This document shows, piece by piece, positions 2-14,687 of a stretch of 15,030 bases of DNA. A program made the position numbers and the translations under genes. The DNA lies in IMG/VR virus record IMGVR_UViG_3300014749_000039, positions 1-15,030 of that record, one strand, 5' to 3'. The notes under the pieces are model-generated. The model was not told the origin of the DNA, made no database searches, and worked only from the letters and a program-made list of their open reading frames with translations. This stretch comes from a virus (lineage: Duplodnaviria; Heunggongvirae; Uroviricota; Caudoviricetes). Positions within the stretch are counted from its first letter, which is position 1, and every line of letters begins with the position of its first letter.

Positions 2-952
2 AAAAAATGGCGACAAACCTATTTTTCCACGCCATCCAGCCTGACACACAGTGCTTATCCGTTCTGGTCCGGTGCGCTGTTCAACCGAGGGCGCAACAAA
101 GCCGATAAGGTGGACATCGACCTGTCCCACAGCAATCTGGCCCCCGGCCTGCTGTGCGCAGACGGGCAATACCGCCAGATAGTCACCGTGGAAGATGCGG
201 TGCGCGGCGGCTGTAACCTGTTCGACCTCGACCAGTTGCGCATGGAGTACAGCCCGGACGAATACCAGAACCTGCTGATGTGTGAGTTCGTGGACGATCT
301 CGCGTCTGTGTTCCCACTCAGCGAGCTGCAGGCGTGCATGGTGGACAGTTGGGAAGTCTGGACCGACTTTCATGCACTGGCCCTGCGCCCGTTTGGCTGG
401 CGCGAAGTGTGGATCGGTTATGACCCGGCAAAAGGTACGCAAAACGGCGACAGCGCCGGATGCGTGGTGGTGGCACCGCCAGCCGTGCCGGGTGGTAAGT
501 TCCGCATTCTTGAGCGTCACCAGTGGCGCGGAATGGACTTCCGCGCCCAGGCTGACGCCATCAAAAAACTGACCGAACAGTACAACGTGACCTATATCGG
601 TATCGACTCAACCGGCGTTGGTCACGGGGTTTACGAGAACGTGAAAGCGTTTTTTCCTGCCGTCCGGGAGTTTGTCTACAACCCCAACGTTAAAAACGCC
701 CTGGTACTCAAGGCCTACGACATTATCAGCCACCGCCGTCTGGAGTTTGACGCCGGACACACCGACATAGCGCAGTCCTTTATGGCAATCCGTCGCGCCA
801 CCACCGCCAGTGGCAACCGCCCGACCTATGAAGCCAGCCGCAGCGAAGAAGCCAGCCACGCCGATCTGGCCTGGGCAACGATGCACGCACTGTTTAACGA
901 ACCGCTGCAGGGCGAATCCGCCAATACCAGCAATATTGTGGAGATTTTTTGA
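2..952 (+). CDS. Terminase large (ATPase/nuclease) subunit, P2 gpP-like, C-terminal part; 5' end lies outside the window
   Basis: Reading frame is open from position 2 with no stop before the listed GTG at 110, so the ORF is truncated by the window edge. Translation resembles the C-terminal nuclease region of P2-family terminase large subunits, and the gene sits directly upstream of the portal gene as in the P2 P-Q operon. Confidence 0.7.
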   Translation, partial: KKWRQTYFSTPSSLTHSAYPFWSGALFNRGRNKADKVDIDLSHSNLAPGLLCADGQYRQIVTVEDAVRGGCNLFDLDQLRMEYSPDEYQNLLMCEFVDDLASVFPLSELQACMVDSWEVWTDFHALALRPFGWREVWIGYDPAKGTQNGDSAGCVVVAPPAVPGGKFRILERHQWRGMDFRAQADAIKKLTEQYNVTYIGIDSTGVGHGVYENVKAFFPAVREFVYNPNVKNALVLKAYDIISHRRLEFDAGHTDIAQSFMAIRRATTASGNRPTYEASRSEEASHADLAWATMHALFNEPLQGESANTSNIVEIF

Positions 953-1983
953 TGGGAAAGAGTAAGAAGAACCGCGCTGCGGCGACGAAACAGATCCAGC
1001 TTAAAAGTCAAACTACAGCCGAAGCATTCAGCTTCGGCGATCCCGTTCCTGTTCTGGACCGCCGAGAACTGCTGGATTATGTGGAATGCGTACAGATGGA
1101 CCGCTGGTATGAGCCGCCCGTCAGCTTTGACGGACTGTCGCGCACCTTCCGCGCTGCCGTTCATCATAGTTCCCCGATTGCAGTAAAGTGCAACATTCTG
1201 ACCAGCACCTACATCCCTCACCCGCTGCTCAGCCAGCAGGCTTTTTCGCGTTTTGTGCAGGACTATCTGGTATTTGGTAACGCCTACCTGGAGAAACGCA
1301 CGAACCGCTTCGGTGAAGTTATCGCCCTTGAACCTGCCTTGGCAAAATACACCCGACGCGGGTTAGACCTGGATACCTACTGGTTTGTGCAATACGGTAT
1401 GACCACGCAGCCATATCAGTTCACGAAAGGCAGCATCTTTCATCTGATGGAACCGGACATCAACCAGGAGATCTACGGCCTGCCCAGTTATCTTTCTGCT
1501 ATTCCATCCGCCCTGCTCAACGAGTCTGCCACGCTGTTCCGCCGCAAGTATTACATTAACGGCAGTCATGCAGGCTTCATCATGTATATGACCGACGCCG
1601 CGCAGAACCAGGAAGATGTGAACAACCTCCGCAACGCGATGAAAAGCGCCAAAGGCCCTGGCAACTTCCGCAACCTGTTTATGTACTCGCCTAACGGCAA
1701 AAAGGACGGGCTTCAGATCATCCCGTTGTCAGAAGTCGCAGCGAAAGATGAATTTCTGAACATCAAGAACGTGAGCCGGGACGACATGATGGCTGCACAC
1801 CGCGTACCGCCTCAGATGATGGGAATTTTGCCGAATAATGTTGGGGGGTTTGGTGATGTGGAAAAAGCAAGCAAAGTGTTTGTTAGAAATGAATTAATCC
1901 CATTGCAAAGAAGGATTCAAGAACTTAACGAATGGCTTAACATAGAAGTTATTATCTTTTCTCCATATAATTTATCCAATTGA
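952..1983 (+). CDS. Portal protein, P2 gpQ-like (alternative TTG start at 949)
   Basis: 343/344-aa ORF, the size of P2 portal. ATG at 952 overlaps the terminase stop TGA (950-952) as TGATG; GGAG at 940-943 as SD. The last ~40 codons (from ~1861) are markedly AT-rich compared with the rest of the gene. Confidence 0.7.
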   Translation: MGKSKKNRAAATKQIQLKSQTTAEAFSFGDPVPVLDRRELLDYVECVQMDRWYEPPVSFDGLSRTFRAAVHHSSPIAVKCNILTSTYIPHPLLSQQAFSRFVQDYLVFGNAYLEKRTNRFGEVIALEPALAKYTRRGLDLDTYWFVQYGMTTQPYQFTKGSIFHLMEPDINQEIYGLPSYLSAIPSALLNESATLFRRKYYINGSHAGFIMYMTDAAQNQEDVNNLRNAMKSAKGPGNFRNLFMYSPNGKKDGLQIIPLSEVAAKDEFLNIKNVSRDDMMAAHRVPPQMMGILPNNVGGFGDVEKASKVFVRNELIPLQRRIQELNEWLNIEVIIFSPYNLSN

Positions 1984-1990
1984 ATTTAAT

Positions 1991-2007
1991 GGGTAGTAAA
2001 ACTACCC
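1991..2007 (-). terminator. Short hairpin between convergent portal and DprA-like genes (possible bidirectional terminator)
   Basis: Perfect 7-bp inverted repeat GGGTAGT-aaa-ACTACCC immediately after the DprA-like stop codon (2009-2011); flanks are A/T-rich but there is no clean U-run. Confidence 0.3.
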
Positions 2008-2008
2008 A

Positions 2009-2971
2009 CTAAATCAGAAAGTGACTCATATTAGATCTATAAATATCAGAATTTATCTTAATTTTGCTTATTGACTCAGATATTACATTCATCAGTGAAT
2101 CATAGTCTTGACTAGTGCGCAAGGGATTAGCCAATTCATTATCAACAAGTTGTTGAGTTCCTTCGCAATTAAGTCCCAGTGGATTATCAGCCTTATGCGG
2201 TACAACAGCAAAAATAGGTCTTGCCGCTTTAATAGCAAAATCCGCCTGCGTCATTGTCCCACTATTTTTTGCTGCTTCGATTAGTATCGAAACTGCTGAT
2301 AAACCTACCTGGATTCTGTTGCGTTGCACAAATGACTGCTTGAATGCAGGCCTCCCTACAGGATACTCAGAAATCCAAGCCCCACCGTTAGATAAAATTT
2401 CATTTGCTAATCTAGCATTTTGTTTAGGCTTAGCGCTCTCTAAACCATGAGCTAATACAGCAATTGTTTTAGCACCTGCCTTAAGAGTTGCCTTGTGTGC
2501 ATTTGTATCAGTACCAATAGCTAGGCCGCTTACAATCACCACACCTCTTTCACAGATTTTCTTGGTAATTCTCTTCGTAATTTCTTCCCCTGCCATAGAA
2601 ACTTCACGAGAACCAACAATTGCAACTCCTGGCATCTCACTAAGAATATTTACGTCCCCCTTCAAATATAACATTGCTGGGGGATTTGGCGTAATTGCTA
2701 AACAAATAGGGTATTTAGCATCTCCAAAAGGAATTGGAACAATCCCCAATGATAAATGCTTGCTCAAATAGTCTTCAGCATTATGCAATGACGCTATAGA
2801 AAAGGTTGATTTTAAAATCCCGGCTGAATTAACACACTCAACCAATTCATATTCATCGGAAATAATATGGAATGGAATATCGTTAAATAATTTAAGCAAC
2901 CCTTGTTCTGATGCAAGTCTATCAACCTGTACCGATAGACCTAACAATATTTTGAATTGGGAAGGGTGCAT
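2009..2971 (-). CDS. DprA/Smf-like Rossmann-fold (SLOG-type) protein with ~100-aa N-terminal extension; second gene of the PRTase-DprA pair
   Basis: Translation contains the DprA core signature (VAIVGSREVS...VVIVSGLAIGTDTNAHKATLKAGAKTIAVLAHGLE...WISEYPVG...QRNRIQVGLS...IEAAKNSGTMTQADFAIKAARPIFAVVP). Start chosen at ATG 2969-2971, preceded by AGGAG; the listed ORF start at 2986 lacks an SD. Low GC. Confidence 0.75.
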   Translation of the reverse strand: MHPSQFKILLGLSVQVDRLASEQGLLKLFNDIPFHIISDEYELVECVNSAGILKSTFSIASLHNAEDYLSKHLSLGIVPIPFGDAKYPICLAITPNPPAMLYLKGDVNILSEMPGVAIVGSREVSMAGEEITKRITKKICERGVVIVSGLAIGTDTNAHKATLKAGAKTIAVLAHGLESAKPKQNARLANEILSNGGAWISEYPVGRPAFKQSFVQRNRIQVGLSAVSILIEAAKNSGTMTQADFAIKAARPIFAVVPHKADNPLGLNCEGTQQLVDNELANPLRTSQDYDSLMNVISESISKIKINSDIYRSNMSHFLI

Positions 2972-2975
2972 TATT

Positions 2976-3545
2976 TCACTCCTCATAATTAGCTGTTTCT
3001 AGTAACGCCAGTGGCAATATTGTCTTTGCGCCTGCATATCTTAACAGATAATAGCACGCCGTCATACTCCCCCCAGTTGTAGTAACATCATCAATAAGGA
3101 GAATAACCTTATCAGCCACATTGGATGTAACTCCGATTGTTGACATATGATGTTCGACAGAACGATCTCCGCCCCCCTTATGAGCACTCACTACTGTTGT
3201 TTTTCTCTGTAATGATTGGTTATATACAGCATTAGGAAATTTTTTCGCAATATCTTGCGCTATTTTTATTAAAGCTTGAGATACTTTTCCCTCAGCATGA
3301 GAAGGAACAATTGTTATCTCAAAGGGCACGTCGGTAAAAGCAACCCTACCAATCACATAGCTTTGGAGGCTAGAAGTTAAAAGTTGGGTAAAAATATTAA
3401 CAGCCTTTGCATACCCGGAATTTGAAGCGTCCTTCAAATCCATCATTGCCTTTGAAAGTCTATCCCCGGAACGAGGATTTCGCTCTCCTCGATATCGCCA
3501 AGGATGATATGTACCGCAAGAGTAAATTTTGATTGGCCCCATCAT
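2976..3545 (-). CDS. Phosphoribosyltransferase-domain protein (ComF/ComFC-like PRTase); first gene of the pair
   Basis: Classic PRPP-binding loop VILLIDDVTTTGGSM near the C-terminus. Stop TGA at 2976-2978 lies 4 nt upstream of the DprA-like start, so the two genes form a tight operon. Low GC. Confidence 0.75.
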   Translation of the reverse strand: MMGPIKIYSCGTYHPWRYRGERNPRSGDRLSKAMMDLKDASNSGYAKAVNIFTQLLTSSLQSYVIGRVAFTDVPFEITIVPSHAEGKVSQALIKIAQDIAKKFPNAVYNQSLQRKTTVVSAHKGGGDRSVEHHMSTIGVTSNVADKVILLIDDVTTTGGSMTACYYLLRYAGAKTILPLALLETANYEE

Positions 3546-3672
3546 TTTTCTGCGCCTTAAGAGTAGATATATCCATATTAAATGGATACTTACATCATTT
3601 ACAACCCAAAAAATGACACCAAGTTATCACTAATGACTTAGGTTCAAATGCCAAACTAACTCTCTGCGCGCG

Positions 3673-3691
3673 CTCGTATCCCCGCCACGCC
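3673..3691 (-). other. cos-like cohesive-end site of the P2/186 type
   Basis: Minus strand reads GGCGTGGCGGGGATACGAG; the first 13 nt match the start of the P2/186 19-nt cohesive end as I remember it (GGCG[A/T]GGCGGGGA...). It sits in a GC-rich patch between the portal-side cargo and the tum-like/A side, where cos lies in P2/186. Confidence 0.45.
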
Positions 3692-3736
3692 TGCCCGCTT
3701 TATGTAGTGGTTTTCATGCAGGTGCATGATCTACGC

Positions 3737-4033: not shown

Positions 4034-4459
4034 ATGAAAAGCTTTTACGTATTAATTTTAATTCTGGTTGCAAGCTTTGTTAGCGTCCCAGTTCAGGCGG
4101 TAACAGCTAAAAACTATGAGAAAGGAACTAAAGCTCAACAGAAATCAATATCTTACCTTTCATGTGCATTCTATGGCAGTAGCACACAATTAGATCCTAG
4201 CTACACGGAGCAAGTACCTACAGCCGATATCAAGATATTACAGAAAGCAGCTTACCACGCTTACAACGATGCGCTCTCATACTTTGGTTATGAGGAACCA
4301 GATCACGAACAACGCATAATTGATTATGCTGAATTTGTGGCGTCGCAAGAAGCTGTGTTATGGGATAAACCAGGAATGAATGGAAAGCAGGTAACACTAA
4401 TTGCTCGTTCTCTCTACAATGAGAGTAACTGTAACTTGTTACTGGACTCAATTAAGTAG
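4034..4459 (+). CDS. Small secreted/periplasmic protein of unknown function (cargo gene next to cos)
   Basis: N-terminus MKSFYVLILILVASFVSVPVQA has a charged n-region, hydrophobic core and a VQA-V signal-peptidase-I-like site; no lipobox. SD GAGGT 5 nt upstream of the ATG. AT-rich relative to the phage core. Confidence 0.6.
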   Translation: MKSFYVLILILVASFVSVPVQAVTAKNYEKGTKAQQKSISYLSCAFYGSSTQLDPSYTEQVPTADIKILQKAAYHAYNDALSYFGYEEPDHEQRIIDYAEFVASQEAVLWDKPGMNGKQVTLIARSLYNESNCNLLLDSIK

Positions 4460-4618: not shown

Positions 4619-4852
4619 TTAATGCAGCCAGCTGTCGTCTTCCCACACCTTCTGCATAATTTTCATCACTTGTTTTCTTTCTTCGTCCAGTTGCAGTCCG
4701 GTCAGTTCCACACCGTTAGAGCTACCTTTACGGATACGGATTACCGTTTTGGGATACAGGGGGCGCAGATTGCGGTAAAGCTCGGATTCAAGGGCGTCCA
4801 GGGTAGACTGGCTAATCTTCTGCTCTTTATCGATCATTATTTCAATGCGCAT
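4619..4852 (-). CDS. DinI-family protein
   Basis: Translation from internal ATG (4850-4852) begins MRIEIMIDKEQ... and aligns along its length with E. coli DinI (MRIEV..., ...WE..D.W at the C-terminus). GAGGTGA SD sits 8 nt upstream. The listed 101-aa ORF is an N-terminally over-extended version. Confidence 0.75.
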   Translation of the reverse strand: MRIEIMIDKEQKISQSTLDALESELYRNLRPLYPKTVIRIRKGSSNGVELTGLQLDEERKQVMKIMQKVWEDDSWLH

Positions 4853-4862
4853 AAAAGTCACC

Positions 4863-5051
4863 TCAGCTGATGACATCCATTGAGCGGTTGTATTCGTGGG
4901 TTCTGATTTTTGCCATGAGTTCATCAGTCAATTCAGAAACCCACTGCAGAGCCAGCCCCTTCTCTTCATCACTACACTCACTAGCCGCTACAAGCCTAAG
5001 AAAAAAATCAATGCGCTGGAGCTTCAAAGACTCCAAAAAATAGTCCTGCAT
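4863..5051 (-). CDS. 62-aa protein, first gene of the LexA-box operon; possible Tum-type antirepressor (function inferred from position only)
   Basis: Internal ATG at 5049-5051 is preceded by a strong SD AGGAGGAAAG; the listed 96-aa ORF start has none. Lies 10 nt upstream of the DinI-like gene and directly downstream of a LexA box. Confidence 0.55.
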   Translation of the reverse strand: MQDYFLESLKLQRIDFFLRLVAASECSDEEKGLALQWVSELTDELMAKIRTHEYNRSMDVIS

Positions 5052-5204: not shown

Positions 5205-7619
5205 TTAATACAGGTTCCGCCACTGATCATCTTCCTGCAAACGCTGGTTCCGATAGAAGATACGCAGGCCTGCTCCTGACGGAATACTGCCTCCGCGAAG
5301 GAGTAAATCGACCTCTTTCTCGCTGCCATCAAATCCTCTGGACTTCAGCTCATACACGAGCTGCAGTCGCTGATGGTCTGTAATTCGCTGTTTGTAGTCT
5401 TTACGCCGTTTCGGTTTCACCAGGCGTAACCTTGCTGCCAGTTCCCGGCGCTCTTTTTTGCTCATACTGTGCAGGTAATCGTGCAACTCCTTGTCATCCA
5501 TGCGGGTAATGTCCGTCCTGGTATCCCCATCAGCTGATTTATCTTTCCCTTGTTGGTTCAAATTTTCAGCAAGGGGACAGTTATTGCCACGAGTCCAAGG
5601 GGCGCAAGCGCCCTGGTCGGCTGCCGCCTCCTGAACGTCAACGGCTTTACGAACCATTTTCCACTTCACTGCATGAGTGCAGATCTTGCCCTCTGCAATG
5701 GGTGACCAGATGCCATAAATACGAATACCGTGATCGCCATAGGCGGTCGGCTCTTCGTTGATTTCATAAGCGGTTCTGATGAGGTGATATTTACGGGGAA
5801 CCAGTACGCCGCCCTGCTTCATGATGTAGGTGGCAAAGCAACCAGCATCAGCTGCAGCCAGAATGGCATCAAGGCGCGGGTTATCCAGTACCGGCGCACC
5901 TGCTTTTTTGTCACCCTGTTGCCTTGCCGCCTGACCAGCCAGCAATCGCAGTTCACGGTAAGCCTGACGCCCCGGAATGCCAAAGAAGCGGAATTGCTGA
6001 ACACGATGCAGAGACGCCCAGGCATTAACGTATTCAGCGTTATCACGCAGAGATTTACCCGTTTCCTTGCTGATCTCGCCAGCCAGACCACGCCCGTCAA
6101 TGTTCTTACTGATATATTTCGCGATGTAGCTTGTCGGCGTTCCTTTGCGCGGGTTAATCAACTCAGACTTAAAGCGCGGCCCAGTGTTATTGCCCAGCTC
6201 CTCGCGGTCTTCACGGATGGCAAACTTACGCAGTAATGCAGTGATGGCGCGGCGGTCTTTTTTGCGCATAAAACACAACAGGTGCCAGTGAACTGTACCG
6301 TCATGATGCGGCTCAGCCACCCGCACGCCATACCAGCGCAATCCGGCTTTGTGCATCGCCTTACGAAATGCAGCAAACATGCCGACCAGATAGTCGCTGC
6401 TTTGTCTTACCGTCGAGTTTGTCCAGGTCGGGTTGGGTCTGCCGTTATTGAGCGTGGAATGGAAACGCGACGGACAGGTGATAGTGTAGAAAACGGCGCA
6501 GTCACCGCGCATTTCCGCGATAAGCTCCAGACCTTTAACACAGGCCATCATCTCATTGCGGCGATGCGCCGGGTTGCTGCTGCTGGCGTTTACCACATCT
6601 TCCATATCCAGCGTGTCGCCGTCTTCGTTCACCAGTTCATGAGAACGGAAAAACTCCAGCGACTTACGGCGCTGCTCACGTTTATGCATCACGGCTTCAT
6701 AGCTGACATAGGGGGATGCTTTTTTGCTGACCAGGCAGACAGCACGCAACTGCTCTTCCCGCCATTCGCAACGCATCTTCCATAATTTCCGATACCACCA
6801 GTCGGCACACAACATACGCGCCAGCGAACCCGGAATGAGTTCATAGGGCACGGGTTTACGGCGGTTTCTTTTCCGACGGAGTTGCTCAAACGCAGGCGGA
6901 ATAACATCCAGACGCAGGGTTTCCGCTGCCACCTTTTCCCATGTTTTGCGGATTTCTTCTGGCTTAACGTCATCGGTGGCATACAAATCACCACAAGCGG
7001 CATCAAGGCACATGCTCATATGCGCAGCGACAAGGGTAGACAGGCGTTTCACCTGATCCTGACTCATTTCAGGCAGGATAAGCAGGCCATCCAGCCCTTC
7101 ATGGCTTGCCATAAAGCGAAAAGAAGTGGATAGCTGACAGTCGCGGACATGCTCCAGTCGTTCCAGACATGGCTTAATCGTCTCACGCAAATAGCGGGAA
7201 TAAGCCTTTGGCCTGCCCAGGCTGCTGAAATATTCAATACGTTGCATCAGCGGCTTGCTGATATGGGAAGGCTGGGCGTTGACGTCAGCCAGAATGACCA
7301 TGTCCGGATTAAAACGCTGCTGCTCATGCGCCAGCTTTGCCCGGCTAATGAGCTTATCCTGCTCCATTTCGCGCTGGACAGGATCACGGGATTCATTAAA
7401 GAAATAACGCTCCCAGACCTGATCACTCAGTGCCTCGCGGCGCAGTTGTTCCTGCTCGTTATCGGCAGCGTACAGAGTGATCAGGTTTGAAAGTGCAGAA
7501 ACCGGCGCAACTTCCGCCGGGTCCAGATAAGGGTTAATGGCCTTTTTTGGGCTGTTCCATGAGAATGCTGCGGCGACCTCGTTAAAGCCGCTGCAGTTGT
7601 TCATATCAGCATGGCTCAT
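5205..7619 (-). CDS. Rolling-circle replication initiation endonuclease, P2/186 gpA-like
   Basis: ~800-aa protein with an HUH-type motif ([10 protein letters not shown]) and a twin-tyrosine motif ([10 protein letters not shown]) typical of superfamily I rolling-circle initiators. Start chosen at ATG 7617-7619, which overlaps the Dam stop as ATGA; the listed ORF begins at an upstream TTG (7646). Confidence 0.8.
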
Positions 7620-8473
7620 GCACGCACTCCGTACACGGCGGAACAATCCACGCCACGCGAAGGATCAAATCCTATCCAGCAGCGCGGCCCGGCAACAGCA
7701 ATGATTTCTGTTGCAGATTTACTCTCACCAGGTGCCACGCCGATGCTGCGTTTTGCCTTGATGTAGTGGTGAGTAAAATTGCGATACAGCGAACGGATCA
7801 GGGATGTGTCACTGTTAGAAATAATGACCGGATATCCTTCTGATGACCGATGTTCAAGAACGGATGCCAGGTGATACTGGTCATCTTCAGTGAAACCATC
7901 AGTGTGATAGCCGGAAAACGTACCGTCATAAGGCGGATCGCAATACACCACATCCCCCGCGTGCAACATCGCCAGCGTTTCATCGAAGCTGGCGCAGATA
8001 AACGTTGCCCGCTGGGCTTTTACTGCAAATGCACGAATTTCTTTTTCAGGAAAATACGGATTTTTATAATTACCGTAGGGAATGTTGAAATGCCCGCTCT
8101 TGTTATAGCGACATAAACCACGGTAACCGTGACGATTGAGATACAGGAAATATATCGCTTTCATGAAATCAGTAATTTCAGTTGAGTAATTAAACTCCTG
8201 CCTTATGTTGTAATAATCCATCTCCCTGTTTGCGTTCTCAAATAAAACTCTGGCGCGAGATATAAACGATTCACAATCAGCGGCAACCTTTTTATAGAGG
8301 TTGATTAAATCAGGATTAATATCCGCAACCAGATAGCTGGGATAATCCGTCTCCATCATCACAGCACAGGAACCCGCGAAAGGTTCAACCAGTCGCGGGC
8401 CAGCAGGAAGATGTTTTTTCAGTTCGGACATTATGGCAGTTTTATTTCCCGCCCATTTCAGGATGGTGCTCAT
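7616..8473 (-). CDS. dam: DNA adenine methyltransferase, Dam-like (D12 class N6-adenine MTase)
   Basis: Translation from ATG 8471-8473 begins [11 protein letters not shown]...[11 protein letters not shown] and contains the DPPY catalytic motif, with overall resemblance to E. coli Dam. SD GGAGGTG upstream; a C-terminal tail overlaps the start of gene A. Confidence 0.8.
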
Positions 8474-12758: not shown

Positions 12759-14492
12759 CTACTCAAGAAGATATTCTAACTCATCTTTTATCGGGATAAC
12801 TTGCTCATAAAGTCGGTGATATGACTTCCCAATTGCGCCTCTGAATTGTATTAACTTTGGTGGCTTGTTACCTATATTAATAATATGGTCTTGAGCTATA
12901 CCTGGGTAGGGATCAATAAATACAATTTCAGATATACCTAACTGATAAGCTTTTTTCGCACACAGCTCACAGGGACTGGCAGTTGTATATAACCTCCCCC
13001 CCTGAACGCCAATGCCACCATATTTTGCAAGTTGTAAAAATGCGTTTTCCTCAGCATGTAATGCACGTGTATGAACTTGATTACCTTTTTTATCTTTATC
13101 AAGATCATTATGTATATCTTTAAAACAATAAGATAAGTTCCTGCCTCTATAAATATCACCAGTTTTATCTATCGCCCTAAAATTTAATAGTTTCTCATTA
13201 GCTTTAATTCTGAAAGAACTATTATTTCTCTCATAATGACTGTACACTTTTTCATCAAAGTCGTTCATTAGGCCATCTAGCGATCTCATAGAGCAAGGAA
13301 TCTGACCGTTGGCGACATCATTCCAACCCACTGATTTTATTGAGTTTTCACCATCAGTTACTACAGCTCCCACCTGTCTAGATATACAACCAGAGTTTAA
13401 TTTTACCGTATACGCAACTTGCATAACCCTTTCCATTGCAGTAGGTGTTATCAGACCAGGATGCTTCATCAGTGCGATGTACCACGCTAATTGTGCTTTT
13501 AAAATATTGTCATTATCAAATTCATTTTTTGGGTTAAAAATGTGTATATCTGATAGTTCAATGCATTTAGTTACATTTGGATTAGTGAGATGTTTGTAAG
13601 AGTTATCACCTTTACCTGACTCTACAGAATCTATTTCCTCTATCTGCTTTTCAGAAAACTTATGTAGTTTCCGCAAATAGTTTGTTCGATGTTCATCTGG
13701 GGCATTTATTGACATTAAATGAAATGCAGAATATCTATCCTTAAAAAATTTTGCTTCATATGGATTTCTAATAGCATCTATGACAATTAATGCGTTATCT
13801 CTTTTGCTTTTTCTTATTAATTTAATAACCCTATTAATAGTTTCCGGCAAATGAAAAACAGATTTAGGTATAAACTCTTTATCTTCAAAATCGACTTCAA
13901 TACGCCCACGGCGTCTAATTGACTTACCTGCTAACTGATAGACTGAAACATATAAATTTGAGTTTATCGCATTTAGTTCAGCTTTGAATTCCTTAGTAAA
14001 TTTTCTAACTAACCTCAAAATTGATATAAATTTATTAATCGTTTTTTCATTAAGCTTCAATTCACTATTATGATCAAGCAAATTCTCAATTACATTTTTA
14101 AATCTTGTTAAAATGAGATTATCTGAAAATACACCAAAAGTTAATACATTATCTAAATGCTCTTTACTGATAGATTTATTAGATGATAGAATAAACTCAG
14201 AAGCTTCTTCAACTGTTAACATCAAAAGATACGCTGAGATTAGGTCACTCACCTTAATTGAGTAAAAATTTTCCCAGTGATTTTCTGCGAATTTTTTAAC
14301 TATATTATAACGATGGACATCCAATCCCTTGTAAAAACCCTGTAATTTACTTACATCAGGGAAGACTGTTTTTTCGTTTTCAAGAATATTAGCTGTTGTT
14401 GTGCAACCAGAACCAGTTCGACCTGTCAAACCGACTAAAATAAACTGCCCATTTTCAAGGAAAAGCTCACTAACGAATTTTTTTTCTTTCAT
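12759..14492 (-). CDS. P-loop kinase-like + deoxycytidylate/cytidine deaminase fusion protein (AvcD / defensive dCTP-deaminase-like)
   Basis: N-terminal nucleotide-binding loop LVGLTGRTGSGCTTT and C-terminal zinc-deaminase motifs HAEENAFLQ...PCELCAKKAYQLGISEIVF (H[AC]E...PCxxC). Very AT-rich gene in an AT-rich islet between int and the ssrA fragment. First codon is GTG (14493-14495) or ATG at 14490-14492. Confidence 0.75.
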   Translation of the reverse strand: MKEKKFVSELFLENGQFILVGLTGRTGSGCTTTANILENEKTVFPDVSKLQGFYKGLDVHRYNIVKKFAENHWENFYSIKVSDLISAYLLMLTVEEASEFILSSNKSISKEHLDNVLTFGVFSDNLILTRFKNVIENLLDHNSELKLNEKTINKFISILRLVRKFTKEFKAELNAINSNLYVSVYQLAGKSIRRRGRIEVDFEDKEFIPKSVFHLPETINRVIKLIRKSKRDNALIVIDAIRNPYEAKFFKDRYSAFHLMSINAPDEHRTNYLRKLHKFSEKQIEEIDSVESGKGDNSYKHLTNPNVTKCIELSDIHIFNPKNEFDNDNILKAQLAWYIALMKHPGLITPTAMERVMQVAYTVKLNSGCISRQVGAVVTDGENSIKSVGWNDVANGQIPCSMRSLDGLMNDFDEKVYSHYERNNSSFRIKANEKLLNFRAIDKTGDIYRGRNLSYCFKDIHNDLDKDKKGNQVHTRALHAEENAFLQLAKYGGIGVQGGRLYTTASPCELCAKKAYQLGISEIVFIDPYPGIAQDHIINIGNKPPKLIQFRGAIGKSYHRLYEQVIPIKDELEYLLE

Positions 14493-14687
14493 CACGTCCC
14501 ACTTATGAATGTAAGAATATTCAACATATTAATTATAATTTATTAACTCATTTTGTTCTAGATACTTGATGTAATGGCGGCACTTTGGCGACGGAGCATT
14601 AAAAACGCGTAAGACGAGCAAATACAACAAAACACTAACACATTGTTTTTAAATATAAATAGCTGTTTTTACTATACTAAAAATGGT

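What the first reader, a model, noticed from the sequence alone, without database searches (positions are those of the whole stretch)
1861..3660. AT-rich two-gene cassette (ComF-like PRTase + DprA/Smf-like) inserted between the portal gene and cos
Seen: two tightly linked minus-strand genes (4-nt spacing, SD inside the upstream gene's 3' end) in DNA far more AT-rich than the flanking phage core. One carries a textbook PRPP-binding loop (LLIDDVTTTGGSM); the other carries the DprA Rossmann-fold core behind a ~100-aa N-terminal extension of unknown fold. Established: ComFC-type PRTases and DprA are both natural-transformation proteins, but here they sit at the variable cos-proximal site of a P2/186-type prophage, where P2 itself carries old/tin and relatives carry anti-phage genes. 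From memory, a DprA + PRTase pair has been reported from P2-like hotspots as a candidate anti-phage system (named something like 'DprA-PPRT'); as far as I know its mechanism and trigger are not described. Inference: a PRPP/nucleotide-handling enzyme paired with a SLOG-type ssDNA/nucleotide-binding fold suggests nucleotide modification or depletion, or recognition of incoming ssDNA.
Basis: partly seen in the sequence, partly recalled or inferred. Interest (0 to 1): 0.75.

Follow-up and report, generated by a model that had tools for sequence, protein, structure and literature searches.

The report
Short-toxin ShosTA anti-phage cassette
The two AT-rich genes between the portal gene and cos of this P2/186-like E. 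coli prophage are a compact member of the known ShosTA toxin-antitoxin anti-phage family, so the finding is real but belongs to a system whose mechanism has already been published.

Summary
Two tightly linked minus-strand genes lie between the portal stop codon (1983) and cos (about 3674-3692). They are a 189-aa phosphoribosyltransferase (PRTase, 2976-3545) and a 320-aa DprA-like protein (2009-2971). The DNA is 39% GC, against 52-59% in the flanking phage core.

The interpretation needs updating. The pair matches the PADLOC models ShosT (2.7e-18) and ShosA (9.3e-70). ShosTA is the same system as the "DprA+PRTase" pair of Rousset 2022. It is a validated toxin-antitoxin defence, with crystal structures and mechanism papers from 2025 and 2026.

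This copy differs from the studied 424-aa ShosT. Its toxin lacks the N-terminal pyrophosphatase domain. It shares only about 20% identity with the ShosT PRTase domain, although ShosT is its best structural match in the PDB. The "N-terminal extension of unknown fold" is the ordinary helical SAM domain of DprA and ShosA.

The PRTase-then-DprA pair recurs in P2-like, Mu-like and other mobile contexts across Gammaproteobacteria. Only 14 of 5,426 complete E. coli genomes carry this allele.

Verdict: a new, untested member of a known kind. Interest is low to moderate.

The parts
2976..3545 (-). Short ShosT-like PRTase (predicted toxin), 189 aa, identical to WP_016245841. PRPP loop D152-D153-V-T-T-T-G-G-S. 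No HAD/pyrophosphatase domain and no 4-Cys zinc finger.
   Evidence: Sequence matches: Pfam Pribosyltran 28.9 bits; PADLOC ShosT PDLC03962 2.7e-18 and PsyrT 3e-10. AF2 model pLDDT 90.1. Best PDB folds are ShosT 8zvc/8zvd/8zvb (TMq 0.55-0.58), then ComFC 7p0h. A family profile aligns residues 6-189 to ShosT 159-367, probability 93.6%.
2009..2971 (-). ShosA-like DprA-family protein (predicted antitoxin), 320 aa, identical to WP_016245842. An alternative upstream ATG at 2986 would give 325 aa. Domains: SAM-like helical N-terminal domain (~1-75), Rossmann/SLOG core (~77-285), long C-terminal helix (287-317).
   Evidence: Sequence matches: Pfam DNA_processg_A 9.4e-60; PADLOC ShosA PDLC03961 9.3e-70; TIGR00732 dprA 181.8 bits, below its 191.15 cut-off. 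AF2 model pLDDT 93.7. Foldseek top hits are 3maj, 8zva (ShosA) and 3uqz, over ~290-309 columns. BLASTP gives 34% identity to APEC O1 ShosA.
3546..3673 (-). Cassette promoter/leader region between cos and the PRTase start. It holds a conserved -35-like TTGTAA and -10-like TAATAT 18 nt apart, then an AAGG Shine-Dalgarno. The inverted repeat ATCCAT-TTAAT-ATGGAT overlaps the -10.
   Evidence: Nine diverged loci were aligned. Sequence is invariant through cos, diverges immediately afterwards, and only the TTG..(17-18 nt)..T(T)AAnAT blocks stay conserved. The consensus scanner did not report it (8 of 12 matches, below its threshold), so the promoter is inferred.
1984..2008 (.). Hairpin between the convergent DprA-like and portal genes: a probable bidirectional terminator and the left edge of the cassette.
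   Evidence: 15-bp stem, -18.1 kcal/mol, z = -5.3 on the cassette strand; -14.1 kcal/mol, z = -3.6 on the portal strand. The T-tract is weak, and the terminator scan did not list it.
3674..3692 (-). P2/186-type cos core (GGCGTGGCGGGGATACGAG), the right-hand boundary of the inserted cassette.
   Evidence: Sequence read. The pattern is found ~135-150 nt upstream of the PRTase gene in 27 related loci and is invariant in the alignment.
949..1983 (+). Portal protein gpQ (context, the left flank). Its last ~80-100 nt are already AT-rich.
   Evidence: RefSeq annotation of the identical DNA; GC profile.

Best explanation
The cassette is a compact ('short-toxin') member of the ShosTA toxin-antitoxin / abortive-infection family, carried as an accessory gene pair by a P2/186-like prophage.

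Shown here:
- The upstream gene encodes a minimal ComF/ShosT-type PRTase that keeps the PRPP-binding residues.
- The downstream gene encodes a DprA-fold protein with a SAM-like domain, a Rossmann core and the two arginines that ShosA needs for ssDNA binding.
- The two genes are co-oriented, 4 nt apart and always found together.
- The pair moves between variable sites of temperate phages and other mobile islands.

Inferred by homology to the studied E. coli ShosTA (Pu 2025, Yang 2026):
- The PRTase uses PRPP to phosphoribosylate a still-unidentified acceptor. This disturbs purine/nucleotide pools and causes DNA damage, filamentation and death.
- The DprA-like protein does not bind the toxin. 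It counteracts the damage by binding ssDNA and recruiting RecA-dependent recombination (a type IV TA).
- Infection tips the balance in one of two ways. Phage shut-off of host transcription may stop resupply of a less stable antitoxin. Alternatively, phage ssDNA or replication intermediates may titrate the antitoxin away from RecA. Either way the infected cell dies or stalls before the phage matures.

This toxin has no fused pyrophosphatase domain, so PPi removal would be left to the host Ppa. That fits the published result that the ShosT pyrophosphatase mutant R56A loses only a little toxicity.
For: Both proteins hit the PADLOC ShosTA models: ShosT PDLC03962 at 2.7e-18 and ShosA PDLC03961 at 9.3e-70. 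The related PsyrT/PsyrA models come next. APEC O1 ShosT and ShosA hit the same broad models.

The PRTase model (pLDDT 90) has ShosT crystal structures as its top three of four PDB matches, with ComFC third. A profile alignment maps H83, R114, D152/D153 and T156-G158 onto ShosT H240, R274, D331/D332 and T335-G337. D331A/D332A abolishes ShosT toxicity and H240E reduces it.

The DprA-like model (pLDDT 93.7) matches DprA and ShosA over ~300 columns. R122 and R217 correspond to ShosA R139 and R234, which are essential for ssDNA binding and antitoxin function, and both are invariant in 30 homologues. K183 corresponds to the RecA-contact residue K200.

A PRTase homologue lies directly upstream of the DprA-like gene, on the same strand with a gap of no more than ~60 nt, in 44 of 44 loci with a full-length DprA-like match and upstream DNA available. 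The contexts include:
- P2-like phages at the portal-cos site, including the isolated Salmonella phage SopEPhi, orf14/orf15;
- Mu-like prophages of Aeromonas and Shewanella;
- a Pseudomonas island beside HicAB and RES-Xre TA pairs;
- an integrase-flanked Vibrio element.

The cassette is accessory. This allele is complete in 14 of 5,426 complete E. coli genomes, while about 1,050 further genomes match only short parts of the query, such as its cos end. The low GC points to horizontal origin.

The tested relative protects against T7 and lambda (PMC9122126) and T7 (PMC11961720).
Against: No experiment exists for this short subtype. Toxicity, neutralisation and phage defence are all inferred.

Similarity to the studied ShosT is remote: no phmmer hit in the PDB at E<0.01, ~20% identity, and TMq only 0.55-0.58. 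The pyrophosphatase domain that the 2025 paper presents as part of the mechanism is absent.

Some ShosA functional residues are not conserved: R206 is A189 here, and the dimer-interface pair L181/F182 is K164/A165. ShosA's disordered C-terminal tail, reported to confer instability, is replaced here by a confidently predicted long helix with only 3 disordered residues. The antitoxin-instability trigger may therefore not apply.

One viral contig (L043) has a frameshifted DprA-like gene next to an intact PRTase. If real, this is unexpected for a lethal toxin. The frameshift lies in a G7 run and may be a sequencing error.
Confidence: 0.72

Rival explanations
1. It is a prophage addiction/stabilisation module only. 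The pair is a genuine toxin-antitoxin that penalises loss of the prophage but gives no protection against other phages.
For: The module has a TA-like architecture and sits in mobile elements next to other TA pairs, such as HicAB and RES-Xre in Pseudomonas. No defence data exist for this subtype. ShosTA was first described as a TA system, not a defence system.
Against: The two tested relatives, E. coli APEC O1 and KTE181 ShosTA, defend against T7, lambda and SECphi phages. The cassette occupies the P2 cos-proximal hotspot, which is enriched in validated defence systems. It also recurs at variable sites inside lytic-capable phages such as SopEPhi. Addiction and defence are not mutually exclusive.
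Confidence: 0.12
2. It is a phage-serving recombination / DNA-handling module related to the ComFC-DprA pair of natural transformation. On this view the PRTase-fold protein binds ssDNA and hands it to the DprA-like RecA loader. This would help phage recombination, lysogeny or repair, and the pair would not act as a toxin-antitoxin.
For: ComFC is the second-best structural match and the best NCBIfam match, although far below its cut-off. ComFC binds ssDNA and interacts with DprA in other species (PMC9005727). The DprA-like protein keeps ssDNA-binding arginines and a RecA-contact lysine. ShosA itself promotes short-repeat recombination.
Against: The PRTase lacks the 4-Cys zinc finger that defines ComFC; its only cysteines are at 10 and 164. 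It scores 28.5 bits against the ComF cut-off of 233.55. The best sequence-profile and fold matches are to ShosT. The pair is rare and patchy among P2-like prophages, not a conserved part of the recombination or replication gene set. The strictly conserved catalytic DD motif and flexible-loop residues argue for enzymatic activity.
Confidence: 0.06
3. It is a nucleotide or DNA modification system. On this view the PRTase makes a modified nucleotide, or phosphoribosylates DNA bases directly, to mark or damage DNA, and the DprA/SLOG fold acts as a nucleotide-binding sensor rather than a RecA mediator.
For: The acceptor substrate of ShosT is still unknown and no tested purine bound it. DprA belongs to the SLOG superfamily, with weak hits to LDcluster4 and structural hits to LOG and ThsA SLOG domains. 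Weak PADLOC DpdF hits cover the PRPP loop.
Against: The DpdF hits cover only the generic PRPP loop, 38-39 residues. The DprA-like protein matches true DprA and ShosA far better than nucleotide-binding SLOG proteins: E 1e-17 to 1e-19 against 1e-4 to 1e-6. It also keeps the ssDNA-binding arginines. This reading overlaps with the main explanation in the toxin step and differs mainly in the role of the second protein.
Confidence: 0.07

Closest known systems
ShosTA of E. coli APEC O1 / KTE181. This is the 'DprA+PRTase' (DefenseFinder-style 'DprA-PPRT') system of Rousset 2022 and Millman 2022. Structures: 8ZVA-8ZVD, 9VZO.
   Same: Both are two-gene modules of a ComF-type PRTase plus a DprA-like protein with SAM and Rossmann domains. 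Both are carried in the gpA-cos-gpQ hotspot of P2-like prophages. The PRPP-loop DD motif, the H240-equivalent histidine and the two essential ssDNA-binding arginines are conserved. ShosT is the best PDB fold match for the PRTase, and both proteins hit the broad PADLOC ShosT/ShosA models.
   Different: The toxin is 189 aa against 424 aa, with no N-terminal HAD/pyrophosphatase domain and a shorter flexible loop. It is ~20% identical in the PRTase core and does not hit the APEC O1-specific model PDLC03012. The antitoxin is 34% identical over the core. It lacks R206, the L181/F182 interface residues and the disordered C-terminal tail. The cassette sits on the portal side of cos, not the gpA side. 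It is untested experimentally.
PsyrTA (RqlHI)
   Same: It pairs a DprA-like antitoxin with a toxin that ends in the same PRTase family. PADLOC gives PsyrT 3e-10 (matching model positions 553-686 of 689) and PsyrA 5.3e-29.
   Different: PsyrT carries a large N-terminal RecQ-like helicase that is absent here. PsyrA is longer, with a 398-position model.
ComFC + DprA of natural transformation
   Same: The PRTase fold has a DDxxTTG PRPP loop, and ComFC 7p0h is the third-best PDB match. The DprA fold has SAM and Rossmann domains. ComFC and DprA are functionally and physically linked in competent bacteria.
   Different: There is no 4-Cys zinc finger. Both proteins score below the curated family cut-offs: comF 28.5 against 233.55, dprA 181.8 against 191.15, and E. 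coli DprA PRK10736 161.9 against 495. The C-terminal DprA extension of long DprAs is absent. The location is an accessory site on a prophage rather than a competence regulon.
Retron-associated and phage 'polyvalent protein' PRTase effectors
   Same: These are stand-alone or fused PRTase domains of mobile elements that use the catalytic DD motif as conflict effectors.
   Different: There was no PADLOC retron-effector hit, and there is no reverse transcriptase or ncRNA nearby. The partner here is a DprA-like protein.

Membership tests
ShosTA (toxin-antitoxin anti-phage system) | The toxin contains a ComF/ShosT-type PRTase domain with an intact PRPP-binding site (the DD motif is essential for toxicity). 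| tested here: met
   PADLOC ShosT PDLC03962 2.7e-18. ShosT structures are the top PDB fold matches. D152/D153 align to D331/D332 and H83 to H240. These residues are invariant in 20 homologues.
ShosTA (toxin-antitoxin anti-phage system) | The antitoxin is a DprA-like protein (SAM domain plus Rossmann fold) with ssDNA-binding arginines. | tested here: met
   PADLOC ShosA PDLC03961 9.3e-70. Foldseek matches 8zva (ShosA) at TMq 0.72 over 306 columns. R122 and R217 correspond to R139 and R234 and are invariant.
ShosTA (toxin-antitoxin anti-phage system) | The two genes are adjacent, co-oriented and co-inherited as a module. | tested here: met
   4-nt spacing in the window. A PRTase lies directly upstream of the DprA-like gene in 44 of 44 informative loci.
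ShosTA (toxin-antitoxin anti-phage system) | An N-terminal HAD-like pyrophosphatase domain is fused to the PRTase, as in the structurally characterised ShosT. | tested here: not met
   The protein is 189 aa and aligns only to ShosT 159-367. It has no HAD Pfam hit and no hit to the APEC O1-type model PDLC03012. This domain is a feature of the studied subtype rather than of the family model. The broad PADLOC ShosT model has only 237 positions, and 123 of the 150 best family representatives are 215 aa or shorter.
ShosTA (toxin-antitoxin anti-phage system) | The PRTase is toxic, the DprA-like partner neutralises it, and the pair protects against phage. | not testable with these tools
   This needs expression and plaque assays. 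Published data exist only for the long-toxin APEC O1 / KTE181 systems.
ComFC (competence protein) | An N-terminal 4-Cys zinc finger plus a PRT domain, scoring above the curated family cut-off. | tested here: not met
   Cysteines occur only at positions 10 and 164. TIGR00201 scores 28.5 bits against a cut-off of 233.55, and GntX PRK11595 scores 17.7 against 304.
DprA/Smf (transformation recombination mediator) | A score above the equivalog cut-off, and a housekeeping or competence-regulon context. | tested here: not met
   TIGR00732 scores 181.8 against a cut-off of 191.15, and the E. coli-type PRK10736 scores 161.9 against 495. The gene lies in an accessory prophage cassette present in 14 of 5,426 genomes. 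The fold itself is DprA-like.
P2 cos-proximal defence hotspot cargo (Rousset 2022) | Located between gpA and gpQ next to cos, and variable between related prophages. | tested here: met
   Gene order in the window is portal, cassette, cos, three small genes, gpA. Rousset's Table S5A lists WP_016245841 + WP_016245842 at this hotspot. The flanks are shared with about 1,050 genomes that lack this cassette.

The most novel reading that the evidence does not exclude
The short PRTase may be the minimal, ancestral form of the ShosT toxin. Its real acceptor might not be a free purine but DNA, or a DNA-bound nucleobase: for example phosphoribosylation of ssDNA, analogous to ADP-ribosylation by DarT. That would explain three things. 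No purine bound ShosT. The closest non-ShosT fold is the ssDNA-binding ComFC. The antidote is a RecA-loading ssDNA binder. On this reading ShosTA would be a weaponised derivative of the ComFC-DprA transformation pair. The 189-aa enzyme, with no accessory domain, would be the cleanest tool for finding the acceptor.
Probability: 0.12. Interest if true: 0.75.

Novelty: new member of a known kind. Interest (0 to 1): 0.3.

Why it matters
Little changes conceptually. The cassette adds one more defence or addiction module to a well-described P2 hotspot, and existing defence-finder models already recognise it.

Its practical value lies in three points:
- All ShosTA biochemistry so far comes from the 424-aa two-domain toxin. 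The family search here suggests that most relatives are ~185-200-aa stand-alone PRTases like this one. Testing a short form would show whether the 'coupled PRTase-pyrophosphatase' model is general.
- The acceptor substrate of ShosT is still unknown, and a minimal enzyme is a simpler route to finding it.
- The pair is present but unannotated, or annotated 'unknown', in well-used strains and phages. In EPEC E2348/69 the toxin ORF is missing from RefSeq. Salmonella phage SopEPhi carries it as orf14/orf15. This could matter for phage-sensitivity phenotypes of those strains.

Tried and rejected
- A sequence search of the PRTase against PDB chains found nothing at E<0.01. The relation to ShosT appeared only through structure prediction with Foldseek and profile alignment.
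- The genome-contig scan with the PRTase alignment gave only 2 true loci, because the peptide patterns were narrow. Contexts were obtained instead from the look-up of encoding contigs and a viral-contig scan.
- The consensus promoter/terminator scan found no minus-strand promoter upstream of the PRTase and no terminator after the DprA-like gene. Both were inferred instead from cross-locus conservation and folding.
- Rfam found no RNA family in the whole window, so there is no retron ncRNA or RNA antitoxin. ARAGORN found no tRNA.
- I tried to establish whether the original ShosTA of Kimelman 2012 had a short or long toxin. The paper is not held, and a review I searched instead does not mention it. 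This stays unresolved.
- ComFC membership, housekeeping DprA and retron PRTase effector were considered and rejected.
- The L028-type allele (70% aa identity) is absent from complete E. coli genomes.


Full report
**1. Observation**

The window is a P2/186-like prophage of E. coli. The finding's stretch (window 1861-3700) is 100% identical to the chromosome of strain KK19-02, and the other genes named below are 99.7-100% identical in protein.

Gene order in the window:
- terminase fragment, 110-952 (+)
- portal gpQ, 949-1983 (+)
- DprA-like gene, 2009-2971 (-)
- PRTase gene, 2976-3545 (-)
- cos, about 3674-3692
- three small genes, including a DinI-like one
- replication endonuclease gpA, 5205-7646 (-)
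- Dam methylase, CII, CI and integrase
- outside the prophage, an anti-phage dCTP deaminase

The two genes of the finding are exactly as described. They are 4 nt apart when the RefSeq start (MHPSQF...) is used, and a GAGGAG Shine-Dalgarno lies inside the 3' end of the PRTase gene. The PRPP loop LLIDDVTTTGGSM is present.

The cassette is 39.0% GC, against 52-59% for portal, terminase and gpA. The drop begins about 80-100 nt before the portal stop and ends just before cos.

Pfam confirms both domains: Pribosyltran at 28.9 bits, just over the 26.3 cut-off, and DNA_processg_A at 201.8 bits.

**2. What it is**

PADLOC models identify the pair as ShosT (2.7e-18) and ShosA (9.3e-70). The related PsyrT/PsyrA models are weaker second hits.

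Rousset et al. 2022 cloned a DprA+PRTase pair from the P2 hotspot of E. coli APEC O1 and showed protection against T7 and lambda. They linked it to the shosTA toxin-antitoxin system. Millman et al. validated ShosTA independently. Rousset's Table S5A lists this window's exact proteins, WP_016245841 + WP_016245842, as one of the hotspot arrangements.

Two mechanism papers now exist.
- Pu et al. 2025 solved ShosT, a 424-aa protein with an N-terminal pyrophosphatase domain (1-164) and a PRTase domain (165-424). They also solved ShosA (SAM domain plus DprA Rossmann fold). PRTase-dependent toxicity went with disturbed purine metabolism, filamentation and DNA duplications. T7 Gp0.7 triggered the system through transcription shut-off combined with an unstable antitoxin.
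- Yang et al. [quoted passage not shown] ShosA is an ssDNA-binding dimer that must bind RecA to neutralise the toxin, and excess ssDNA disrupts the ShosA-RecA interaction.

The statement that the mechanism and trigger are undescribed is therefore out of date.

**3. How this copy differs from the studied system**

The toxin candidate is only 189 aa. It has no HAD/pyrophosphatase domain and does not hit the APEC O1-specific ShosT model. It has no sequence-level hit in the PDB.

A confident AlphaFold model (pLDDT 90.1) nevertheless places ShosT structures first among PDB folds: 8zvc, 8zvd and 8zvb, TMq 0.55-0.58, rmsd 2.7-3.0 Å, 20-22% identity. H. pylori ComFC ranks third, and the metabolic PRTases follow.

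A profile built from 135 family members aligns residues 6-189 to ShosT 159-367 (probability 93.6%). The alignment maps these residues:

| This PRTase | ShosT | Published ShosT mutant result |
|---|---|---|
| H83 | H240 | H240E reduces toxicity |
| R114 | R274 | not tested |
| D152/D153 | D331/D332 | D331A/D332A abolishes toxicity |
| T156-G158 | T335-G337 | not tested |

These residues are invariant across homologues 47-88% identical to the window protein. So is a basic flexible-loop block, SAHK..GDRS...H.

The protein is not ComFC. It has cysteines only at positions 10 and 164, so no 4-Cys finger. It scores 28.5 bits against a ComF cut-off of 233.55.

The DprA-like protein gives a pLDDT 93.7 model. 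It matches R. palustris DprA, ShosA (8zva) and S. pneumoniae DprA over about 290-309 columns.

The protein is 34% identical to APEC O1 ShosA over the core. Its conservation of ShosA's functional residues is mixed:
- R139 and R234, the two arginines essential for ssDNA binding, are kept as R122 and R217, both invariant.
- The RecA-contact lysine K200 is kept as K183.
- R206 is not kept; it is A189 here.
- The dimer-interface residues L181/F182 are not kept; they are K164/A165.
- ShosA's disordered C-terminal tail is replaced by a long, confidently predicted helix (287-317).

The protein falls just below the curated DprA cut-off and far below the E. coli Smf model.

**4. Distribution and context**

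*The PRTase family.* It is large. There are 769 representative clusters at E<=1e-10, and 123 of the best 150 are 215 aa or shorter, so stand-alone. A minority are fused to HAD, helicase or other domains. The broad PADLOC ShosT model has only 237 positions. This suggests that short toxins are already inside the family as database curators define it.

*Linkage of the two genes.* Forty-four retrieved loci had a full-length DprA-like match and upstream sequence. In every one, a PRTase homologue lies immediately upstream on the same strand.

*Contexts.* They are diverse but always mobile:
- the portal-cos interval of P2-like phages of E. coli, Salmonella and relatives, with cos 135-150 nt upstream of the PRTase gene;
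- the isolated Salmonella phage SopEPhi, orf14/orf15, both annotated 'unknown';
- two different positions in Mu-like prophages of Aeromonas and Shewanella;
- a Pseudomonas island beside HicAB and RES-Xre TA pairs;
- an integrase-flanked Vibrio element.

*Frequency in E. coli.* Only 14 of 5,426 complete E. coli genomes carry this allele, and 22 carry a second allele that is 51% (PRTase) and about 60% (DprA-like) identical in protein. About 1,050 other genomes match only short parts of the query, such as its cos end. The pair is therefore accessory, not core.

*Cassette boundaries and signals.* An alignment of nine upstream regions is invariant through cos and then diverges abruptly. Only a -35-like TTGTAA and a -10-like TAATAT stay conserved, which is probably the native promoter. 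A 15-bp hairpin (-18.1 kcal/mol, z = -5.3) separates the convergent DprA-like and portal genes.

**5. Mechanism**

*Shown:* the domain identities, the conserved catalytic and DNA-binding residues, strict gene linkage, and accessory mobile-element carriage.

*Inferred by homology:*
- The PRTase is a PRPP-dependent toxin whose acceptor is still unknown.
- The DprA-like protein is a type IV antitoxin that offsets the resulting DNA damage through ssDNA binding and RecA.
- Phage infection releases the toxin, either by shutting off host transcription or through phage ssDNA and replication intermediates. Escape mutations in phage SSB and primase-helicase genes support the second route.

The lack of a pyrophosphatase domain is probably tolerable, because the R56A pyrophosphatase mutant of ShosT lost only a little toxicity.

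*Uncertain points:* the antitoxin-instability trigger, because the C-terminus differs here; and the oligomeric interface.

I put about 0.72 on this being a functional ShosTA-type TA/abortive-infection defence module. Rivals, from most to least likely after that, are addiction only, a nucleotide or DNA modification system with a sensor-type SLOG protein, and a recombination helper derived from ComFC-DprA.

**6. Novelty and score**

The kind of system is known, validated and mechanistically studied. This exact gene pair is already catalogued, and current defence-finder models recognise it.

What is new is modest. This is an untested short-toxin subtype, on the portal side of cos rather than the gpA side where old/tin and APEC O1 ShosTA lie.

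I rate it as a new member of a known kind, with interest 0.3. The main residual value is as a minimal enzyme for identifying the unknown ShosT acceptor, and for testing whether the published two-domain model generalises.

Noticed in passing
window 12759-14495 (-): A 578-aa protein with an N-terminal P-loop and a C-terminal dCMP/cytidine deaminase zinc motif lies in 33% GC DNA just beyond the prophage integrase. PADLOC dCTPase scores 2.9e-145, and RefSeq calls it 'anti-phage dCTP deaminase'. A second, unrelated defence gene therefore abuts the prophage attachment side.
   Followed up: partly
L051 2501-3076 (E. coli O127:H6 E2348/69, NC_011601.1 863510-864085): The prototype EPEC strain carries the second allele of the cassette in its P2-like prophage. 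The 191-aa PRTase ORF is intact, but it has no CDS in the RefSeq annotation. Only the DprA-like gene is annotated.
   Followed up: partly
L050 4001-5549 (Salmonella phage SopEPhi AY319521.1, orf14 and orf15): The well-known SopE-converting P2-like phage carries a 63%-identical short PRTase plus a DprA-like gene at the same portal-cos site. Both are annotated 'unknown'. This shows that the cassette is compatible with a viable, inducible phage.
   Followed up: partly
L021 about 4795-4805 and L043 about 5555-5565: Single frameshifts split the PRTase (L021, a G9 run in the HKGGGDRS loop codons) and the DprA-like gene (L043, a G7 run). They may be sequencing errors, pseudogenes or slippage-prone tracts. 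The window's own tracts are shorter or interrupted.
   Followed up: partly
window 3571-3587 (-): A perfect inverted repeat, ATCCAT-TTAAT-ATGGAT, overlaps the putative -10 of the cassette promoter. Similar palindromes centred on TTAATA occur in some diverged loci (L021, L039) but not all. It could be an operator or a coincidence.
   Followed up: partly
window 4034-4459 (+), 4619-4852 (-), 4863-5051 (-): The gpA side of cos holds other hotspot cargo. There is a 141-aa protein with a signal-peptide-like N-terminus (no Pfam or PADLOC hit; PHROG 7437, unknown function). There is a DinI-like protein (Pfam 6.6e-23). There is also a 62-aa ORF with no hits.
   Followed up: partly
L044, L046, L047 (IMG/VR contigs): More distant viral versions pair a ~190-aa PRTase with a ~230-245-aa DprA-like protein that lacks the N-terminal SAM-like domain. 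In L049 the DprA-like gene comes first, and the PRTase domain sits at the C-terminus of a 396-aa protein.
   Followed up: no
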